DNA of 23,679 nucleotides. Origin: a virus (Duplodnaviria > Heunggongvirae > Uroviricota > Caudoviricetes). A program made the position numbers and the translations under genes. The notes below the pieces were generated by a model. The model did not search any database. It was not told where the DNA came from and saw nothing but the letters and a program-made list of their open reading frames with translations. The first letter of the stretch is position 1; the number at the start of each line of letters is the position of its first letter. Positions 5,968-21,548 of the stretch are shown here, piece after piece. The stretch lies in the IMG/VR virus record IMGVR_UViG_2671180884_000031; one strand, given 5' to 3'.

Positions 5968-6021
5968 ACGGCGGTAGAGCAGTCACGGAGTAAAACTGAT
6001 ACTGCCAAACGTCACCAGAAA
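5968..6021 (-). ncRNA. dicF: DicF small regulatory RNA (ftsZ-targeting antisense sRNA)
   Basis: Minus strand reads TTTCTGGTGACGTTTGGCAGTATCAGTTTTACTCCGTGACTGCTCTACCGCCGTTTTT, near-identical to recalled K-12 DicF, ending in a GC stem plus T-run; lies ~170 bp upstream of dicB as in K-12. Confidence 0.8.
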
Positions 6022-6280: not shown

Positions 6281-6856
6281 TTAAGGATTCATTAAGCAAT
6301 GTCGCAACCACCAATAAATCCGCTTAAGAACATGAAAATTGATTACTGGTATAAAGCGCTTACAGTTGTTGGCGCTGCGTTGTTTGTCTTTAATGGAACG
6401 TCTTTTTTTGACAGATATCCCGTTGTTCCATTGGGTTTTTTGTCCTCCGGCATCTTTTTTATTGGTTTGGGGGAGTGGATTAATCACCCTCTCAAGGTGA
6501 GATTTATTGGTCCTGGAGTTTGGACTCGTGGATATAATCGTTCTTCGTGCGCACTCGGTATCATCTTCGACATACTTGGTTGTTTCCTGATTGTTACAGG
6601 AGTCGTCAAGTTCTTCTGATGTAAAACCGCAAATGGGGCACGTAACGGGAATTTTGAAAAGCGTTTCTCCGGGTTCCAGAACAAAATTTTCTGCGGTCTG
6701 ATTTTGCTTCTCATATTTGTGCTCCGCGTCATTGTGAGAGCACATTCTTATTCTGAGTGCCTGTTTAAACTCACTGAAGCTGAGAGCTTCTTCGCCTTCG
6801 GCAAGGCCTTCGAAGTATTCTTCGTAAGCCTTTTCCATGATTGTGTCGAAATCCAT
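6281..6856 (-). CDS. YdfB-like protein; 3' extent uncertain (the part at 6281..6619 may be an antisense shadow of the plus-strand membrane ORF)
   Basis: ATG at 6856 sits one nt after the ydfA stop; MDFDTIMEKAYEEYFEGLAEGEEALSFSEFKQAL resembles recalled YdfB (42 aa in K-12), but the frame stays open for 191 codons and includes a CPICGF motif. Confidence 0.35.
   Translation of the reverse strand: MDFDTIMEKAYEEYFEGLAEGEEALSFSEFKQALRIRMCSHNDAEHKYEKQNQTAENFVLEPGETLFKIPVTCPICGFTSEELDDSCNNQETTKYVEDDTECARRTIISTSPNSRTNKSHLERVINPLPQTNKKDAGGQKTQWNNGISVKKRRSIKDKQRSANNCKRFIPVINFHVLKRIYWWLRHCLMNP
6332..6619 (+). CDS. Hypothetical small membrane protein (three predicted TM segments)
   Basis: ORF 6299..6619; from the internal Met: MKIDYWYKALTVVGAALFVFNG...VVPLGFLSSGIFFIGLGEWI...SSCALGIIFDILGCFLIVTGVV. 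Convergent with, and codon-aligned antisense to, the minus-strand ORF 6281..6898, so only one of the two is likely real. Confidence 0.4.
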   Translation: MKIDYWYKALTVVGAALFVFNGTSFFDRYPVVPLGFLSSGIFFIGLGEWINHPLKVRFIGPGVWTRGYNRSSCALGIIFDILGCFLIVTGVVKFF

Positions 6857-10096: not shown

Positions 10097-10843
10097 TTAT
10101 TCAGCTAAATAACCGCCATCGATTGGATAAACGCCTCCGGTACAGAATGTAGAACTGTCTGACAGCAAGAACAATATGAAGTCTGCTATTTCCTGCATTT
10201 TTGCCATCCTTTTCATAGGGTGGCTATTTGCGAAACTACTTACAATATTTTCAGGGAACTCACTCATTCTTTGGGTTTGGACATAGCCCGGAGCGACTGC
10301 ATTGATTCGAATGCCTTGACATGCAAACTCTAGCGCTGCGGTTTGGGTTAAACCGATTATACCATGTTTAGCCACGGTGTAAGGTGCTAATCCAGGAATG
10401 CCAACCAGACCATTTACTGCAGATAAATTAACTATAGATCCACCAAACTTCATCATCTGGGGTATTTCATATTTTAGGCAGTGAAAAACGCCGCTCAATG
10501 AGGTAGCAATAACCTTATCCCAGTTTTCAACTGTCTGCTCTGTTATATTTTTACCATGTTCACCTGTTAAGCCTGCATTATTTACAGCATAATCAAGTCT
10601 GCCGAAATGTTTGATAACCTCATCTATCATTTGCCGTACTTGTTCGGGCTGTGACACATCACATCCGATCCCCATGGCTTGTTGTCCCTGTGAAGATAAT
10701 TGTTCCGCTTTTTGTTTAGCCTGTTCTGACGAGCGGGATACAATAACAACTTTTGCACCATGCTTATGTAATTGCTCTGCGACGGCCTCACCTATACCTG
10801 TAGTGCTTCCTGTTATAACGGCAATTTTATTCTGGAAATTCAT
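10097..10843 (-). CDS. SDR-family (short-chain dehydrogenase/reductase) oxidoreductase
   Basis: TGSTTGIG cofactor-binding motif, NNAG, catalytic YTVAKHG (YxxxK); start at ATG 10843 with a GGGGGTGG SD. Confidence 0.8.
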   Translation of the reverse strand: MNFQNKIAVITGSTTGIGEAVAEQLHKHGAKVVIVSRSSEQAKQKAEQLSSQGQQAMGIGCDVSQPEQVRQMIDEVIKHFGRLDYAVNNAGLTGEHGKNITEQTVENWDKVIATSLSGVFHCLKYEIPQMMKFGGSIVNLSAVNGLVGIPGLAPYTVAKHGIIGLTQTAALEFACQGIRINAVAPGYVQTQRMSEFPENIVSSFANSHPMKRMAKMQEIADFILFLLSDSSTFCTGGVYPIDGGYLAE

Positions 10844-10914
10844 AACCACCCCCTATGAAGTAGAATTGAGTCTTTCATCTGGGATAGTATACAAACCATC
10901 TGTGACAGTTTTTG

Positions 10915-11604
10915 TCAGTACTCTTTCCCCTCGCAGATCCCTTCTTTTATTCTCCATTTTTTCAATAAAATTGTCCTGCTTTCACTATAGTTGGAGTCAA
11001 GTTGCACAATATCTTCAATTTTGTCAGTTCTAAAATGACGAAAATCATTTCTCATCTCGCACCATGCAACCAAAAGCCAGCACGATTCCATGTATACCAA
11101 TCCGATGGGCCATATGACTCGTGAAGTGTAAGAATCTTTTTTATCACAATAATTTATTTTGATTTTCTTTCTTTTTTTTATAGCATTGCGAATGTCTTCA
11201 AAAAAAATCTCATTGTTTTCTGATGGACCGATCAGATAGGATTGACTCTCAATAAGATTTTTCAATTCACTGGGAATGACGGCGTGTATTTTCGCAAGCG
11301 CATTCTTTGCGGTAATTTTGAAATTATAATCTGTATTGTGCGATACCCAATTTAACCCAAGTGTAATAGCATTAATTTCTTCATGAGAAAGATTTAAGGG
11401 GGGCAAATGAAAGTCAGATTTAACAATATAACCAATTCCAGCACCACCTTCAATGCATACTCCTTGATGCTGCAGCGTTTTTATATCTCTGTAAAGGGAG
11501 CGTACACTTATTCCCAATCTTTCTGAGAGGATGGATGCTGTGATCGGATATCTTTGTGCCCTTAATATTTGTAGTAACTCGAGAAGTCTTTCTGTTCTAG
11601 TCAT
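10915..11604 (-). CDS. YafY-family transcriptional regulator (N-terminal HTH plus WYL-type ligand-binding domain)
   Basis: From the internal Met: MTRTERLLELLQILRAQRYPITASILSERLGISVRSLYRDIKTL..., a DeoR/YafY-type HTH followed by a WYL-like region; directly upstream of and co-oriented with the SDR gene. Confidence 0.6.
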   Translation of the reverse strand: MTRTERLLELLQILRAQRYPITASILSERLGISVRSLYRDIKTLQHQGVCIEGGAGIGYIVKSDFHLPPLNLSHEEINAITLGLNWVSHNTDYNFKITAKNALAKIHAVIPSELKNLIESQSYLIGPSENNEIFFEDIRNAIKKRKKIKINYCDKKDSYTSRVIWPIGLVYMESCWLLVAWCEMRNDFRHFRTDKIEDIVQLDSNYSESRTILLKKWRIKEGICEGKEY

Positions 11605-11822
11605 GTTGATAAATCCATTTTGAGGCGATTTCTTAAAGCATCTGTTAGATAAACATATTAGTACAAAGCAAGTGTACATGGCTAAGCTGAACTGCTACCG
11701 ATGATTAATACAGCGCTATGTTCGTAATGCGTACATAAGCGGTGATCATGAGTGTAAACATCCGCTTTTCGCTTATAAGGGACAACCATACTCAAATTTC
11801 CCACATTGCAGGAGATTTGAGT

Positions 11823-12425
11823 ATGAATACGTCACCGTGGAACAAAGACCGTATCATCGGCCAAAAAAGACCACTTCAGATATCTCATATCTGGGGGATC
11901 CGAATCCGGCTTGAACTGGAAGGTAAAACGCGCGATTTAGCTCTGTTCAATATGGCCCTGGACAGTAAGCTTCGAGGCTGTGATCTGGTCAAACTCAAAG
12001 TATCGGATGTGGCATATGGTAGTTCGGTTTCAAGCAGAGCAACGGTGTTGCAACAGAAAACCGGTAGCCCTGTGCAATTCGAGATAACCAAAGGGACAAG
12101 AGAAGCTGTTGCTGCATTGATAAAGCTTGGCAATTTGCACAGTAAAGACTTCTTGTTTCGGTCTCGGGTCGGAACTAACCAGCACATTTCAACCCGGCAA
12201 TACAACCGAATCTTTCATGGGTGGATAGAAAAACTTGGTCTCGAAGGTTCACTTTACAGCACACATTCAATGAGAAGAACAAAACCTTACCTGATCTACA
12301 AGAAAACCAAGAATCTCCGGGTGATCCAACTTCTGTTGGGTCATAAGAAACTGGAAAGCACAGTCCGTTATCTGGGCATTGAAGTCGATGATGCGTTAGA
12401 GATCTCTGAATCGATTGAAGTCTAA
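11823..12425 (+). CDS. Short tyrosine site-specific recombinase (~200 aa, phage-integrase family catalytic domain)
   Basis: AGGAG SD before ATG 11823; C-terminal HSMRRT...LLGHKKLESTVRYL carries the R/H-x-x-R ... Y catalytic signature. Confidence 0.65.
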   Translation: MNTSPWNKDRIIGQKRPLQISHIWGIRIRLELEGKTRDLALFNMALDSKLRGCDLVKLKVSDVAYGSSVSSRATVLQQKTGSPVQFEITKGTREAVAALIKLGNLHSKDFLFRSRVGTNQHISTRQYNRIFHGWIEKLGLEGSLYSTHSMRRTKPYLIYKKTKNLRVIQLLLGHKKLESTVRYLGIEVDDALEISESIEV

Positions 12426-12433
12426 GGTTGTCA

Positions 12434-12469
12434 GGGCTGCAACAGCAGCCCTGTGCCAGGAGCGGACGT
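12434..12469. repeat. att-like repeat copy B: hairpin GGGCTGC-AACA-GCAGCCC plus TGTGCCAGGAGCGGACGT core
   Basis: Begins 9 nt after the recombinase stop codon; hairpin plus a core identical to copy A. Confidence 0.5.
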
Positions 12470-12576
12470 CTAGTTCGCTGAACCACAAAAAGTCGTTTCT
12501 AGTTATATTACTGGCTCATTAGTATCTTTATGCGATAATATTTCATACAACCAAAATTATGATGAAGGGAGTTCAA

Positions 12577-13698
12577 ATGGCAATTACGGTCTATTCTCGT
12601 ACATTCAAAAAGGAATTGGACATGGTTCAATTGTTAAACCATTACTCATCAGATAACGCACTCAATTTCAGTGATTTCAAGGAATTTGTTGCCTTTGATG
12701 CAGAGTGCCCAATTTGCAATGTAAGCGGTGCGATTGTTGTTTCAGAAGGTTATTCGAAAAGAACAAATAAGATAGTCAGCCAATCTCATTTTGCGTTTAG
12801 AACAAAAGACGGAACTGATGCACACAAAGTATTTTGCGATCATTACAGTGGTGATGATAAGCAAATAGATTCATCAAGGGATGGTTTTATAAAATTCGGC
12901 ACCTCAGGTTCTGAGATTACAAGTATAATTCGCGAGCTTGTATGTAGAGGTATTGAACATGATGAGTTCAATCAGGAAGATATTCGAAACATGCGGCAAT
13001 GGTTTACAGAATTACGCCAGTCAGGCACTTTTTCTGTTAACTATAGCCCTCACATGATCAATCTAATAAGGGCCAGCATGTATTCCCGTAAGGGAGAAAG
13101 TAAATATATTGTAGATGAAGAGAGGAAAAATAAATCTTGGTTTGATATAAACGATGAAGTGTATCGTTCGTTAAGATTCAAATATCCATCATTGATGATC
13201 GACATGACTAATGAAAATAATTCTGTTTTCTATAATCTTGTGAATAGTACCACATTTACTAAACAAGCACATCGATTAGTAGCACGAGATCGAGGTTATC
13301 AGGTTTATGATAGAAGGTTGCTTAAAGAAAAATATGAAGCAACGATAAGAGTTGCACAAAAAATAACCAGGCATCACGAATTTCTTTTTAGGAAAATCAG
13401 GGGTATATCCGCTGTTAAAAAAAACAACCCCCTTTTGGCTGTATCTGCCTTGCTTCTTTTTGTCTCGGACTGGAATGAAACAACTGCAATCAACAAATTC
13501 ATCAAATTGTGTGGTGTAGGGAAATCTAAAAATAATGATGAGGGGAATGTAATTGGCTTAAATCCCTTTATTCATTACGATGTCTGGAATGTTATTCATC
13601 AACTTAAGGATTTAATGGTTACACTTCCAGACTTCTCAAATCTTGATGAAGAATTTGACAGAGAAAAATCCAGATTAATTGAACTTTACAAGCTCTAA
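12577..13698 (+). CDS. Hypothetical protein, 373 aa, AT-rich cargo gene; candidate accessory/anti-phage function
   Basis: GAAGGGAG SD 5 nt before ATG 12577; N-terminal CPIC ... HKVFCDH cluster suggests a metal-binding site; no family recognised by eye. Confidence 0.7.
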   Translation: MAITVYSRTFKKELDMVQLLNHYSSDNALNFSDFKEFVAFDAECPICNVSGAIVVSEGYSKRTNKIVSQSHFAFRTKDGTDAHKVFCDHYSGDDKQIDSSRDGFIKFGTSGSEITSIIRELVCRGIEHDEFNQEDIRNMRQWFTELRQSGTFSVNYSPHMINLIRASMYSRKGESKYIVDEERKNKSWFDINDEVYRSLRFKYPSLMIDMTNENNSVFYNLVNSTTFTKQAHRLVARDRGYQVYDRRLLKEKYEATIRVAQKITRHHEFLFRKIRGISAVKKNNPLLAVSALLLFVSDWNETTAINKFIKLCGVGKSKNNDEGNVIGLNPFIHYDVWNVIHQLKDLMVTLPDFSNLDEEFDREKSRLIELYKL

Positions 13699-13740
13699 CA
13701 TAAACTAGCAGGCTGCGTATACAGTCTGCTAATTTTCATA

Positions 13741-13970
13741 GTAAAGACTTCATGCTTCAGTCTCGAGTTGGAGCTATCCGTCACACATCACCCAGGCAAT
13801 TCAACCGAAATTTTTCATGGGGGGTAGAGAAGTTTTGTCTCGAAGATTTGCTTTACAGCATACTAATCATTGAACCTCTGTTGAACCATAAGAAACTGGC
13901 AAGCACAATCCGTTGCTTGGGCATTGAATTCGACGATGCGTCGTATAGCTCTGACTTGAACAAAACATAA
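13741..13970 (+). pseudogene. Degenerate duplicate of the tyrosine recombinase 3' end (remnant)
   Basis: About 75-80% nucleotide identity to 12142..12425 with an internal deletion; translation ...SRVGAIRHTSPRQFNRNF...LLNHKKLASTIRCLGIEFDDA parallels the recombinase C-terminus. Confidence 0.6.
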
Positions 13971-13978
13971 GGTTTTTA

Positions 13979-14015
13979 GGGCTGCAACAGCACCTCTGTG
14001 TCATAGGCGGAAGTT
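13979..14015. repeat. att-like repeat copy C (degenerate)
   Basis: GGGCTGCAACAGCACCTCTGTGTCATAGGCGGAAGT parallels copy B in the same position relative to the recombinase remnant. Confidence 0.45.
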
Positions 14016-14311
14016 AACAAACATTAAAATCTCTAAATCTGTAGGGATCAGACTCCTTCTATAAAAGGATACTGTTCATATCCTTAGTTGTATATAGGTG
14101 TGTTTAGAGTATTAGGATGCTAGTTTTGAAAATTAATTTTTTAAACATATTGAATTTTTTAAGAATTGGGAATAGTGTATAGCTTTGTCATGGCGGATTT
14201 TTTCTCTTCAAGTATTTATTTGAACACTACTTCTTGCACCTGCAAGGTTACAATATCGTGTAAATTTGTTCACAAAGACATAGATTATAATTTTTACTTA
14301 AAGGAAATTCA

Positions 14312-15565
14312 ATGTCAAAAAATCTCCCGGTTTTATTAAGCTCGCCATCAACAACTAATTTTCCTGCAACAGTTAATACTGAAATAGAATTCCTTTCGCA
14401 AGCTAGAAAGTTGTTAGATTCTGGCTTCCCTGATCATGCTCTTTTAGATATATGGAATGCATCCATTCATAATCTTAGGCGGCGAATTGAGGCTTATGGT
14501 TTAGACTTATTCCTTTCCGCAATAAAGGATGATAGTGGTCGTAAAAAATATGATAAAGATGGTGAAACAATAAACGAGAGATGGTCAGGTGTAGATGATT
14601 TAGTGCTAATAAGTGGAGCCACCAAATTAGGGGTTCTGCATAAGAAAGCTGGAAAATCATTAGAAATGATCAATTGGATGAGAAACCATGCCTCTCCAGC
14701 CCATGCAAGTGATAGTAAAGTAGAGTCTGAGGATGTGTTTGCTTTGGCTCTTATGCTCCAGAAGAATTTATTCGAATCTGATATGCCAGACCCTGGACAT
14801 TCGCCATCTGGATTATTTGAACCCATAAAAAAATCTGAACTATCAATTGAGAGCATAGACTTACTTAAAGATCAAATAAGAGCATTTAAGCAAGCTGATA
14901 TAAGAATAACATTTGGATTTTTATTGGATTTAATAACTAAGGGGGAAAATCCTGCTTATGTTAATGCTAGCAAGTTGTTTGAACAAGCATGGGAAAGATC
15001 TAATGATGACCTTAAAAAAACAGCGGGGGAAAGATATCACTCATTTATGCTGGAGCCCGAATCGGATACAAGTGAGGATAAAGGAGCAAAAATAAGAATT
15101 TTAGAGACTTTAGTAAAAGTTAATGGTGTGAAATTTATACCTGATGCTGCTAGGGCAAGTTTATACAGACATGCGGTTAAACAGCTAGCTAAAGCTAAGG
15201 ATACATCTTACGGCTGGAATGATGAAGAAAGAGCAGCCAAGGCACTTATACAATTTGGACCTCATGTTCCATCTATTGCTTTTGAAGATGTATATCAAGA
15301 AATACTTACTGTTTGGGTGGGGAATTACTGGGGAAGATCTGATGCACATTTAGTACTTCAACCATTTTTAGATGTGTTAAATAGTAATCAATTGATGGCT
15401 CTCTCACGGTTGTTCGTGGAGAATGAAAGAGCAAATTCAGAACTGGTGTCATCAAGGCCCAAAAGAAGAGCAATAGAATTACTTGAGATAATAAAAAATA
15501 ATCTAACAATTCAAGCAAGCATTGATGAAATTGATAGGATTATTTCTGAAATTGATAAAATGTAA
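14312..15565 (+). CDS. Hypothetical protein, 417 aa, with HEPN-like R-x6-H motif; candidate abortive-infection/defence protein
   Basis: AAGGAAA SD before ATG 14312; helical N-terminal region with WMRNHASPAH (R-x6-H) resembling the HEPN active-site motif; AT-rich; own terminator downstream. Confidence 0.7.
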   Translation: MSKNLPVLLSSPSTTNFPATVNTEIEFLSQARKLLDSGFPDHALLDIWNASIHNLRRRIEAYGLDLFLSAIKDDSGRKKYDKDGETINERWSGVDDLVLISGATKLGVLHKKAGKSLEMINWMRNHASPAHASDSKVESEDVFALALMLQKNLFESDMPDPGHSPSGLFEPIKKSELSIESIDLLKDQIRAFKQADIRITFGFLLDLITKGENPAYVNASKLFEQAWERSNDDLKKTAGERYHSFMLEPESDTSEDKGAKIRILETLVKVNGVKFIPDAARASLYRHAVKQLAKAKDTSYGWNDEERAAKALIQFGPHVPSIAFEDVYQEILTVWVGNYWGRSDAHLVLQPFLDVLNSNQLMALSRLFVENERANSELVSSRPKRRAIELLEIIKNNLTIQASIDEIDRIISEIDKM

Positions 15566-15972: not shown

Positions 15973-16183
15973 TTTCACATTGGCGAGGTAACGGTAGTTA
16001 AGTAGAATGGCTGCGGGTGCTTGAGGCTATCTGCCTCGGGCATGAACACCAACGGCAGATAGAGAAAAGCCCCAGTTAACATTACGCGTCCTGCAAGACG
16101 CTTAACATTAATCTGAGGCCAATTTCATGCTAGACATATGTAGGTTAGCCTCTTACGTGCCGAAAGGCAAGGAGAAGCAGGCT

Positions 16184-16339
16184 ATGAAGCAGCAAAAGGC
16201 GATGTTAATCGCCCTGATCGTCATCTGTTTAACCGTCATAGTGACGGCACTGGTAACGAGGAAAGACCTCTGCGAGGTACGAATCCGAACCGGCCAGACG
16301 GAGGTCGCTGTCTTCACAGCTTACGAACCTGAGGAGTAA
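16184..16339 (+). CDS. hokD: Hok-family small membrane toxin HokD (RelF)
   Basis: MKQQKAMLIALIVICLTVIVTALVTRKDLCEVRIRTGQTEVAVFTAYEPEE matches recalled HokD; AAGGAGAA SD; an in-frame upstream ATG at 16127 could give an extended form. Confidence 0.8.
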   Translation: MKQQKAMLIALIVICLTVIVTALVTRKDLCEVRIRTGQTEVAVFTAYEPEE

Positions 16340-17152: not shown

Positions 17153-17708
17153 CGTGCGGGTATTACTTAGACCTGTTCTGGTGCCTGAGCTTGGGCTGGT
17201 GGTCCTTAAGCCGGGCCGTGAATCCATACAGATATTTCATAATCCTCGAGTGCTGGTGGAACCGGAACCAAAAAGCATGCGTAATCTGCCATCCGGAGTC
17301 GTTCCTGCCGTTCGCCAGCCGCTGGCGGAAGACAAAACATTGCTGCCGTTTTTTAGTAACGAACGGGTGATTCGTGCTGCTGGCGGTGTTGGCGCATTGT
17401 CTGACTGGCTATTACGTCATGTTACATCCTGCCAGTGGCCTAATGGCGATTACCATCACTCTGAAACAGTCATTCACCGTTATGGTACCGGCGCAATGGT
17501 GTTGTGTTGGCACTGCGACAACCAACTGCGTGACCAGACATCGGAATCACTGGAGCTGCTTGCTCAACAAAATCTGACAGCATGGGTGATTGACGTCATC
17601 CGTCACGCAATAAGCGGTACGCAGGAGCGGGAATTATCTTTGGCTGAATTATCCTGGTGGGCGGTCTGCAATCAGGTGGTGGATGCACTACCTGAGGCTG
17701 TATCTTAA
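17115..17708 (+). CDS. Late-gene antiterminator Q-like protein (zinc-finger), candidate
   Basis: C-terminal [10 protein letters not shown] ... CWHCDNQ cysteine/histidine cluster; sits upstream of the csp genes and the lysis cassette, as quuQ does in Qin. Confidence 0.4.
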
Positions 17709-17756
17709 ATGGGGCAATAGAGATATTGAATCTCATCCCGGGATAAACATTGGCAG

Positions 17757-17933
17757 TTGAAGGTCCACGCGAACCATTTATCCAGCAAAATTCCACGCGT
17801 AATCCTGTGGTAATTTCTTCTGCATCTCGAAGATTGAGAGCTGAAACGTGAAGCTGGGCATCGATACGCCATCGGATGGGAATATAAGACCTTTGCTGCT
17901 TTTGTAGTCAAAGTTTTTGACAATTCCTGTCAT
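17757..17933 (-). pseudogene. cspF: cspF-like cold-shock gene remnant (frameshifted, stop lost)
   Basis: From ATG 17933: [22 protein letters not shown], then a one-nt frame change, then ...[42 protein letters not shown]; both parts parallel recalled CspF. Confidence 0.45.
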
Positions 17934-18243
17934 TTTAGGGGACAGAAAAACTCCTTAATACTGATAACCTGGTGCACCATACACACGTTCCTGGAGAAAA
18001 CTACTTTTTTGATAGGGTTGAAGGTGGCTGGATGTCTAAAATAAACATTGCTTCATATGTTCAACTATGAGTTAATGACTGTGTCGGTTTGAAGAACAGA
18101 CGATATACGAAGTAGTTTACTAAAGCAGTTCTCATTTCAGGTGTTATTCACTTATTCCTTCTTTGAGTCTCTCCAATTAAGTACGAAGTCGTTTCTGTTA
18201 TGCAAACCATTTATGCCGAAAGGCTCAAGTTAAGGAATGTAGA

Positions 18244-18459
18244 ATGTCAAATAAAATGACTGGTTTAGTAAAATGGTTTAACGCTGATAAAGGTTTCGGC
18301 TTTATTTCTCCTGTTGATGGTAGTAAAGATGTGTTTGTGCATTTTTCTGCGATTCAGAATGATAATTATCGAACCTTATTTGAAGGTCAAAAGGTTACCT
18401 TCTCTATAGAGAGTGGTGCTAAAGGTCCTGCAGCAGCAAATGTCATCATTACTGATTAA
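18244..18459 (+). CDS. cspB: Cold-shock protein CspB-like (71 aa)
   Basis: [53 protein letters not shown]...; cold-shock-domain RNP motifs; long 5' UTR typical of csp genes. Confidence 0.8.
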
Positions 18460-18740
18460 AATTCATCGCTCGTCTGTATACGATAACGAAGAAGGCTGAT
18501 GCCTGAGTAGAGATACGGACAGAGTAGTGAATATTGGATCTCTTTAATAAAAAGTAAGGAGGTCCAATACATGAAACAATGGCCAGCATATTTGGCAAAA
18601 TCTTAATCAGGAAAAGTATGCTAACCATTGTGGTGAAGTGCAGGTTTGCTGCATGAATAGTTTCACAGCAGAAGCTAACTGCTGGCATCGCAAAACAAAG
18701 TGCGTAAGTGGATGACTCCCACAAAAAGCACCACAATCTC

Positions 18741-19428: not shown

Positions 19429-19739
19429 TCCAATGACTCAAGACTATGAACTGGTTGTGAAAGGAGTCCGTAATTTTGAGAATAAAGTTACGGTAACTGT
19501 AGCCTTACAGGACAAAGAACGCTTTGACGGTGAAATTTTTGGCCTGGATGTCGCCATGGACCGTGTTGAAGGAGCTACGCTGGAGTTTTATGAGGCAGCA
19601 GCCAGAATGAGCGTCCGGCAAGTCTTCCTGGAAGTAGCAGAAAAATTGTCAGAAAAGTTGAGTCTTATCTGCAGCATCAGTACTCCTTTAAGATTGAAAA
19701 TCCTGCCAATAAGCACGAGCGTCCTCATCATAAATATCT

Positions 19740-20767
<1,028 letters not shown>

Positions 20768-21129
20768 GGTAATATTAAATCGGAACATTTACATCGCGGA
20801 ATGTAAAATTTAAATAAAAAGGACTCTTCCATGAGCCAAAATTCCTGAAATCTTAAGGGTAAGATAAAAGGTCTTAATCAGAATGACACGTTTTATTAAT
20901 AAATAAAGCTATTCTTTCATTGCTGTGTTTTTCTTTACAAAAGTAATCCTTGCTATGGGTGGTTAATCATGCGTTAATGGTGTTCTGGTTTGTTACAAAT
21001 TTATCTGAAGCAGTCATTGTTATAATTTTATTATTTGTACCTCTTGAGATTTCCTTGTTGGTTTTTCTCTCTGATATTTTTTTTCGGACCATTCTGCCCA
21101 AGGGCTAATTTCTTCAAAAGGTAATAATT

Positions 21130-21342
21130 ATGTCTAACAAAATGACTGGTTTAGTAAAATGGTTTAACCCTGAAAAAGGTTTTGGTTTCATCACGCCGAA
21201 AGATGGCAGCAAAGATGTGTTTGTCCATTTCTCAGCAATTCAGAGCAACGATTTCAAAACATTAACTGAGAATCAGGAAGTTGAATTTGGTATTGAGAAC
21301 GGACCTAAAGGTCCTGCCGCTGTTCATGTAGTGGCGCTTTGA
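21130..21342 (+). CDS. cspI: Cold-shock protein CspI (70 aa)
   Basis: [70 protein letters not shown] matches recalled CspI. Confidence 0.85.
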
Positions 21343-21548
21343 GGTAGACAATATTACAAACCATATTCACTTTAGATGCCCGTGTTGTCATGGTTCCCAG
21401 TATAGAACATCATCTTTTGATGTTTCTGACATGAATCCTTTCGGGGCAAAATGTATCTTTTGTAAATCAATGATGATTACATTTGATAATATTTCACAAT
21501 ACTTAAATGCTAGCCGTCTGTCGTTGGATTTAAAAAAGTGAAAATGAA

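What the first reader, a model, noticed from the sequence alone, without database searches (positions are those of the whole stretch)
17757..17933. cspF-like gene disrupted by a one-nt frame change and loss of its stop
The first 22 codons and the last ~45 codons both parallel CspF but sit in different frames, and the C-terminal frame runs on past the expected LS-stop. cspB and cspI, by contrast, look intact.
Basis: partly seen in the sequence, partly recalled or inferred. Interest (0 to 1): 0.35.

Follow-up and report, generated by a model that had tools for sequence, protein, structure and literature searches.

The report
Decayed cspF pseudogene in Qin-like prophage
This is an ordinary dead copy of the small E. 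coli prophage gene cspF, broken by a one-base deletion and by a 258-base deletion that removed its end, and public genome annotation already marks the identical allele as a pseudogene in many strains.

Summary
On the minus strand at about 17743-17945 there is a cspF homologue, next to intact cspB in a Qin-like cryptic prophage of E. coli.

- **Frameshift.** One T is missing from codon 27 of the 70-codon gene (GGT CGT has become GG-CGT, between window 17869 and 17868). It splits the gene into a 51-aa N-terminal ORF and a C-terminal part in another frame.
- **Lost stop.** The stop was not lost by a point change. A 258-bp deletion, joint at 17744|17743, removed codons 69-70, the TGA and the whole neighbouring small gene ynfS. 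The C-terminal frame therefore runs on for 48 unrelated codons.
- **Ancestor.** An intact allele (70 aa, ending ANVYLS) exists in E. coli CP123276.1. It has no other base difference from the window up to the deletion joint, so the decay is recent.
- **Spread.** The same doubly damaged allele is in about 217 of 5,426 complete E. coli genomes, including ATCC 25922 and LF82, and in phage Tritos. RefSeq annotates it as "frameshifted; incomplete; missing C-terminus". No genome showed only one of the two lesions.

This is already known and of low interest.

Separately, the window lacks 1,401 bp at 17704|17705 that its otherwise identical relative carries. That segment holds the ydfU 3' end, the Q antiterminator gene ydfT and a terminator. 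The joint was found nowhere else.

The parts
17743..17945 (-). cspF pseudogene. These are the extents PGAP annotates in 100%-identical genomes, starting at the CTG that corresponds to the K-12 TTG start. The ATG at 17931-17933 is codon 5.
   Evidence: PGAP: cspF, frameshifted; incomplete; missing C-terminus. Alignments.
17868..17869 (-). Site of the 1-nt deletion. The T of GGT, codon 27 of the 70-codon gene, is missing between these two bases.
   Evidence: The intact allele reads GATGGTCGT and the window reads GATGG-CGT.
17743..17744 (-). Joint of the 258-bp deletion. It removed cspF codons 69-70, the TGA stop, all of ynfS and flanking spacer. It corresponds to K-12 NC_000913.3 1642058-1642315 and to L010 2704-2961.
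17778..17933 (-). 51-aa ORF left in the N-terminal frame. It has 22 CspF codons, then 29 out-of-frame codons and a TAA. No Pfam match.
17596..17868 (-). The C-terminal frame. It has 42 CspF codons (RIDAQ...ANVY), then 48 unrelated read-through codons that cross the 1401-bp deletion joint and run antisense into truncated ydfU, ending at TGA 17596-17598.
17952..17957 (-). AAGGAG Shine-Dalgarno-like hexamer upstream of cspF. It is conserved with K-12 (AAGGAA there).
   Evidence: Sequence reading only; function not tested.
17704..17705 (.). Joint of a window-specific 1401-bp gap relative to NZ_CP075632.1. The missing segment holds the last 499 nt of ydfU, all of ydfT (Q antiterminator) and the terminator hairpin between ydfT and cspF. 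This is context, not part of the cspF lesions.
17154..17708 (+). Truncated ydfU (DUF968). It is 184 aa instead of 349, and its stop TAA (17706-17708) is created at the deletion joint.
18244..18459 (+). Intact cspB, divergent neighbour of cspF. Its cspA-type thermoregulator leader is matched at 18083-18475.
21130..21342 (+). Intact cspI. Its cspA-type thermoregulator is matched at 20984-21369.

Best explanation
The feature is a non-functional remnant (pseudogene) of the prophage-borne cold-shock-domain gene cspF, in a Qin-like cryptic lambdoid prophage of E. coli.

Two deletions destroyed the gene. The first is a 1-nt deletion in codon 27. Translation from the normal start then yields 22 native residues, 29 junk residues and a premature TAA. 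The second is a 258-bp deletion that removed the last two codons, the stop codon and the downstream small gene ynfS.

Neither remaining ORF can form the five-stranded cold-shock OB fold, so no CspF protein is made. This last step is inferred.

The allele is inherited and spread as part of the prophage module. It is not a private mutation or a sequencing error.
For: Shown directly:
- Alignments with K-12 cspF and with the intact sister allele locate both deletions to the base.
- Only the one-base-repaired translation matches Pfam CSD (59.4 bits). The real ORFs do not.
- The intact allele P0001 (70 aa...ANVYLS) in CP123276.1 has no nucleotide difference from the window up to the 258-bp deletion joint, apart from the missing T.
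- The identical damaged allele is in about 217 of 5,426 complete E. coli genomes. These include several independent assemblies of ATCC 25922, and LF82. PGAP flags it as a pseudogene.
- Phage Tritos carries it too.
- Within the damaged lineage, the five further changes seen are all replacement or nonsense (F22S, H33Q, W55R, A65P, G48stop). None is synonymous, which fits relaxed constraint.

Context from the literature: CspF function is unknown (PMC6719143). A cspF knockout had no effect in long-term stationary-phase competition (PMC7406224). Both are consistent with a dispensable gene.
Against: No expression or protein data were examined, so production of the 51-aa peptide or of a transcript cannot be excluded. 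The relaxed-constraint evidence rests on only five substitutions from three sequences. The order of the two lesions is unresolved.
Confidence: 0.95

Rival explanations
1. The frame change is a sequencing or assembly error, and the gene is really intact.
For: Single-base indels are a common error class. An intact allele that is otherwise identical exists.
Against: The missing base is not in a homopolymer run (GATGGTCGT becomes GATGGCGT). The same 255-nt sequence is found at 99-100% identity, with the same length, in more than 200 independent complete genomes and in a phage genome. Even with the base restored, the gene still lacks its last two codons and its stop because of the 258-bp deletion.
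Confidence: 0.01
2. The two frames are joined by programmed -1 ribosomal frameshifting, giving a functional CspF variant with an extended C-terminus.
For: Both halves remain open in their frames and overlap. The frame change needed is -1.
Against: There is no X XXY YYZ slippery heptamer at the frame junction (CC GAT GGC GTA), read directly. The C-terminal extension is unrelated spacer read out of context, and it differs between the window and its relatives because of the 1401-bp gap. One lineage member has an in-frame stop in the C-terminal half. The intact ancestral allele needs no frameshift.
Confidence: 0.01
3. The remnant has been taken over for a new role. Either it encodes a 51-aa peptide, or, in this window where the downstream terminator is missing, its transcript acts as antisense RNA running into ydfU, rem and hokD.
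For: The upstream region, Shine-Dalgarno-like hexamer and ATG are preserved. The terminator hairpin downstream of cspF lies inside the 1401 bp missing from the window.
Against: The 51-aa ORF has no family match. No sigma-70-like promoter was found by the simple scan. There is no sign of selection on the out-of-frame part. The deletion joint is unique to this window, so no conservation supports any role.
Confidence: 0.03

Closest known systems
cspF (b1558) of E. coli K-12 cryptic prophage Qin
   Same: It has the same position and orientation, divergent from cspB and between cspB and the ydfT/ydfU late-regulation genes in relatives. There are 22 nucleotide differences in the 68 shared codons, about 89% identity. 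The repaired protein differs from K-12 CspF at 9 of those 68 residues.
   Different: The window copy lacks one T in codon 27. It also lacks codons 69-70, the stop and the neighbouring ynfS through a 258-bp deletion. Its first codon is CTG rather than TTG, although intact alleles annotated by PGAP share that CTG.
Intact sister allele WP-type CspF '[31 protein letters not shown]...ANVYLS' in E. coli CP123276.1 (P0001 / L010)
   Same: It is identical to the window at every base up to the 258-bp deletion joint, apart from the missing T. The flanking sequence downstream of the 258-bp deletion is the same.
   Different: It keeps the T, the LS-stop end and ynfS. It is rare, with one member sequence in the 15-billion-protein collection.
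RefSeq cspF pseudogenes, e.g. DR76_RS17085 in ATCC 25922, JFX80_RS03855 in strain 2018-166, C7A04_RS26320 in 2012EL-2448
   Same: The cspF remnant has the same sequence (100%). It has the same two lesions and the same annotation as a frameshifted, C-terminally incomplete pseudogene.
   Different: In those genomes the remnant is followed by a terminator hairpin and an intact ydfT. In the window those 1401 bp are absent.
cspH (b0989), the chromosomal paralogue of cspF
   Same: It belongs to the same divergent CspF/CspH clade of the CspA family, which is poor in aromatic residues and has no known function (PMC6719143).
   Different: It lies at a different locus. It was not compared here at sequence level.

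Membership tests
Cold-shock domain proteins (Pfam PF00313 CSD / CspA family) | A single ORF of about 65-70 aa that matches the CSD profile end to end | tested here: not met
   The real ORFs of 51 aa and 66 aa give no Pfam hit at E <= 0.01. Only the artificially repaired translation matches positions 1-64 of 66 (59.4 bits). cspB and cspI from the same window score 109 and 108 bits.
Cold-shock domain proteins (Pfam PF00313 CSD / CspA family) | Descent from a CSD gene, shown by sequence homology of the DNA to cspF | tested here: met
   There are 22 nucleotide differences from K-12 cspF in the 68 shared codons. There are none from the intact allele P0001/L010 up to the deletion joint, apart from the missing T.
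cspF orthologue of Qin-like prophages | Synteny: divergent from cspB, convergent with ydfT (Q antiterminator), upstream of the lysis cassette | tested here: met
   The cspB side is present in the window (18244-18459). The ydfT side is present in all close relatives but falls in the 1401 bp missing from the window.
Pseudogene (PGAP sense: frameshifted and/or incomplete relative to family) | A frame disruption relative to intact homologues | tested here: met
   There is a 1-nt deletion between 17869 and 17868.
Pseudogene (PGAP sense: frameshifted and/or incomplete relative to family) | Missing terminus or missing stop | tested here: met
   A 258-bp deletion removes codons 69-70 and the TGA. The PGAP note reads 'missing C-terminus'.
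Pseudogene (PGAP sense: frameshifted and/or incomplete relative to family) | Relaxed selective constraint after inactivation | tested here: inconclusive
   Five further changes in three lineage members are all replacement or nonsense, and none is synonymous. The direction is as expected, but the sample is too small for a test.
Programmed -1 ribosomal frameshift genes | A slippery heptamer X XXY YYZ at the frame junction | tested here: not met
   The junction reads CCA TCC GAT GGC GTA TCG, with no slippery heptamer (direct reading).
Programmed -1 ribosomal frameshift genes | Conservation of the frameshift among functional homologues | tested here: not met
   Intact homologues, namely K-12, L006, L007 and P0001, are single-frame.

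The most novel reading that the evidence does not exclude
Two readings are not excluded. In the first, the damaged cspF allele is kept for a reason. Its two lesions are always found together and it travels on an apparently complete phage genome (Tritos). Loss of CspF and YnfS might benefit the phage or host, or the 51-aa N-terminal peptide or its transcript might have acquired a role. In the second, specific to this window, loss of the downstream terminator lets cspF-promoter transcription run antisense into ydfU, rem and hokD.
Probability: 0.03. Interest if true: 0.35.

Novelty: already known. Interest (0 to 1): 0.07.

Why it matters
It matters very little. It is a routine example of gene decay in a cryptic prophage, and the identical allele is already flagged as a pseudogene in RefSeq.

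The minor value added here:
- The exact lesions are now described (a missing T in codon 27 and a 258-bp deletion that also removes ynfS).
- The intact ancestral allele has been identified.
- The frequency of the damaged allele is estimated at about 4% of complete E. coli genomes.
- The same damaged allele sits in a complete phage genome (Tritos), which shows it spreads with the phage module.

It also fits the literature view that CspF is dispensable and of unknown function.

Tried and rejected
1. **Sequencing error.** Rejected because the identical allele occurs in more than 200 independent complete genomes and in a phage.

2. **Programmed frameshift.** Rejected because there is no slippery site, intact homologues are single-frame, and one lineage member has an internal stop.

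3. **Search for intermediates with only one lesion.** I built two synthetic queries, one with the frame repaired plus the 258-bp deletion, and one with the frameshift plus an intact 3' end. Neither exists in the 5,426 complete E. coli genomes. The order of the two events stays unknown.

4. **Loss of the start codon.** The TTG-to-CTG change and R3P are shared with alleles PGAP annotates as intact, so they are not a lesion of this lineage.

5. **Is the 1401-bp gap at 17704|17705 a natural allele?**
   - A 40-nt joint sequence is absent from GTDB representative genomes and JGI metagenomes.
   - No complete E. coli genome spans the joint.
   - The truncated YdfU product, tried with two alternative starts, is not on record.
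   - There is no microhomology at the joint.
   - I cannot tell whether it is a strain-private deletion or an edit of the window.

6. **Promoter scan of the cspB-cspF spacer.** It found no sigma-70 consensus match, which is uninformative.

7. **Structure prediction.** Not run, because it was not needed for a verdict.

Full report
**Where the window comes from.** The 23,679-base window is an E. coli Qin-like cryptic lambdoid prophage next to rspB.
- It is 100% identical to NZ_CP075632.1 (strain 2018-166) 749606-774685 in two pieces.
- It lacks one 1,401-bp segment that the relative carries.
- The gene order in that relative is rspB, int, xis, exonuclease, ydfD, dicB, DicF, ydfA, dicA, dicC ... 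hokD/sok, rem, ydfU, ydfT, cspF (pseudo), cspB, ynfU, essD, ydfR (pseudo), rrrQ, rzpQ, cspI, ymcF, ynfR, ynfN, gnsB, ydfO, ynfO, nohA.
- K-12 Qin has the same core order.

**Checking the observation.** The finding lies on the minus strand.
- Translating the three minus-strand frames gives [22 protein letters not shown] from the ATG at 17933, followed by junk and a TAA (a 51-aa ORF, 17778-17933).
- Another frame gives [42 protein letters not shown]. It is followed by 48 unrelated codons up to a TGA at 17596-17598.
- K-12 CspF is (M)[69 protein letters not shown].
- When one base is restored, the translation matches Pfam CSD (PF00313) over positions 1-64 of 66 (59.4 bits). The two real ORFs match nothing.
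- cspB (18244-18459) and cspI (21130-21342) are intact, full-length CSD proteins.

**The two lesions, to the base.**
- *One-base deletion.* Nucleotide alignment with K-12 cspF shows GATGGTCGT in K-12 and GATGG-CGT in the window. One T is missing between window 17869 and 17868, in codon 27 of the 70-codon gene.
- *258-bp deletion.* At the 3' end, homology stops at AATGTTTA (17744). The next bases, TCCCGGGATGAGATTC..., align to K-12 sequence 258 bp further downstream (K-12 locus L004 5059-5316, which is NC_000913.3 1642058-1642315).
- A 258-bp deletion therefore removed codons 69-70 (LS), the TGA and the entire small gene ynfS.
- The same 258 bp are missing relative to the intact sister allele (L010 2704-2961). 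The sequence downstream of the joint is otherwise the same.
- The 'lost stop' is thus a deletion, not a point change.
- The first codon is CTG, where K-12 has TTG. Alleles that PGAP annotates as intact share this CTG, so it is not a lesion of this lineage.

- It is encoded in E. coli CP123276.1, next to an intact ynfS, ydfT and ydfU.
- Up to the 258-bp deletion joint, the window differs from that allele only by the missing T.
- All nine amino-acid differences from K-12 CspF were therefore already present in a working gene, and the inactivation is recent.
- Within the damaged lineage, three sampled members (strain 14EC033, strain Z1323PEC0014, phage Tritos) carry five further changes: F22S, H33Q, W55R, A65P and G48stop. 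All are replacement or nonsense. This is what relaxed constraint predicts, but the sample is small.

**Distribution and prior knowledge.** A 255-nt query covering the remnant matches about 217 of 5,426 complete E. coli genomes at 95% identity or more, with the same length.
- These include several independent assemblies of ATCC 25922, and LF82. That rules out a sequencing error.
- PGAP annotates the allele as 'cspF ... frameshifted; incomplete; partial in the middle of a contig; missing C-terminus'. In one strain it adds 'internal stop'.
- At least 1,407 genomes carry a K-12-like full-length form at 90-95% identity.
- Synthetic queries representing single-lesion intermediates found no exact match. 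The two lesions always travel together in this collection, and their order is unknown.
- The complete genome of Escherichia phage Tritos (OV696610.1) carries the same doubly damaged remnant between its cspB and Q genes, unannotated.
- The allele therefore spreads as part of a phage module.

**Mechanism.**
- *Shown:* two deletions break the reading frame and remove the C-terminus and stop.
- *Inferred:* translation from the preserved AAGGAG/ATG would give 22 native residues plus 29 junk residues. That product lacks most of the five-stranded OB fold, so no functional CspF is made.
- There is no slippery heptamer at the frame junction, so programmed frameshifting is not supported.
- The literature held here says the CspF/CspH clade has no known function and few aromatic residues (PMC6719143).
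- It also reports that a cspF knockout had no effect in long-term stationary-phase competition, unlike cspB and cspI knockouts (PMC7406224). This fits a dispensable gene that decays freely.

**Surroundings.**
- Rfam finds cspA-type thermoregulator leaders for cspB (18083-18475) and cspI (20984-21369) but none for cspF. It also finds sok (16015-16189) and DicF (5969-6020, minus strand).
- A simple promoter scan of 17500-18300 found nothing, which is uninformative.

**The adjacent 1,401-bp gap (not part of the finding).** Thirty-eight bases downstream of the cspF remnant, at 17704|17705, the window lacks 1,401 bp present in its otherwise identical relative (L011 17705-19105).
- The missing segment holds the last 499 nt of ydfU, leaving a 184-aa product with a stop formed at the joint.
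- It also holds all of ydfT (the Q antiterminator) and the hairpin terminator between ydfT and cspF.
- There is no microhomology at the joint.
- The joint is absent from 5,426 complete E. coli genomes, from GTDB representatives and from JGI metagenomes.
- The truncated YdfU is not on record in the gene collection.
- I cannot tell whether this is a strain-private deletion or an alteration of the window.
- Its only bearing on the finding is that the read-through tail of the C-terminal frame differs from that of relatives.

**Verdict.** It is an ordinary pseudogene, already annotated as such. Interest is low.

Noticed in passing
window 17704|17705 (context 17154-17743): The window lacks 1,401 bp that its otherwise 100%-identical relative NZ_CP075632.1 carries. 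The missing segment holds the ydfU 3' end, the whole Q-antiterminator gene ydfT, and the ydfT/cspF terminator hairpin. The joint has no microhomology. It was found in no complete E. coli genome, GTDB representative or JGI metagenome, and the truncated 184-aa YdfU is not on record. It is either a strain-private deletion or an edited window.
   Followed up: partly
window 19433-19650 (+): ydfR (DUF1327) next to the holin gene essD is also a pseudogene. PGAP notes it as 'frameshifted; incomplete; missing C-terminus' in the identical relative. In the window it reads as a 129-aa ORF that runs on out of frame. This is a second decayed gene in the lysis cassette.
   Followed up: no
window 6755-6856 (-): A partial ydfB pseudogene, missing its C-terminus, is annotated in the identical relative.
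   Followed up: no
window 5969-6020 (-), 16015-16189 (+), 18083-18475 (+), 20984-21369 (+): Four Rfam matches lie above their gathering scores: DicF sRNA, the sok antitoxin RNA of hokD, and cspA-type thermoregulator leaders of cspB and cspI. cspF has no such leader.
   Followed up: yes
window about 10097-15565: K-12 Qin has relBE, ydfV and flxA upstream of hokD. This prophage instead carries different cargo: an SDR oxidoreductase, an HTH regulator, a short site-specific integrase and two large hypothetical proteins (12577-13698, 14312-15565). This is a mosaic replacement.
   Followed up: no
L009 (Escherichia phage Tritos OV696610.1) 2501-2703: A complete deposited phage genome carries the same doubly damaged cspF remnant, unannotated, between cspB and Q. 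Its late region is collinear with Qin (ydfU, Q, cspB, holin, ydfR, endolysin, DUF2514). Qin-type 'cryptic' modules therefore circulate on phage genomes that look complete.
   Followed up: partly
L010 (E. coli CP123276.1) 2501-2713: This is the only intact copy found of the window's cspF allele (70 aa, ending ANVYLS). It is represented by a single member sequence in the 15-billion-protein collection, whereas the damaged derivative is in about 4% of complete E. coli genomes.
   Followed up: yes
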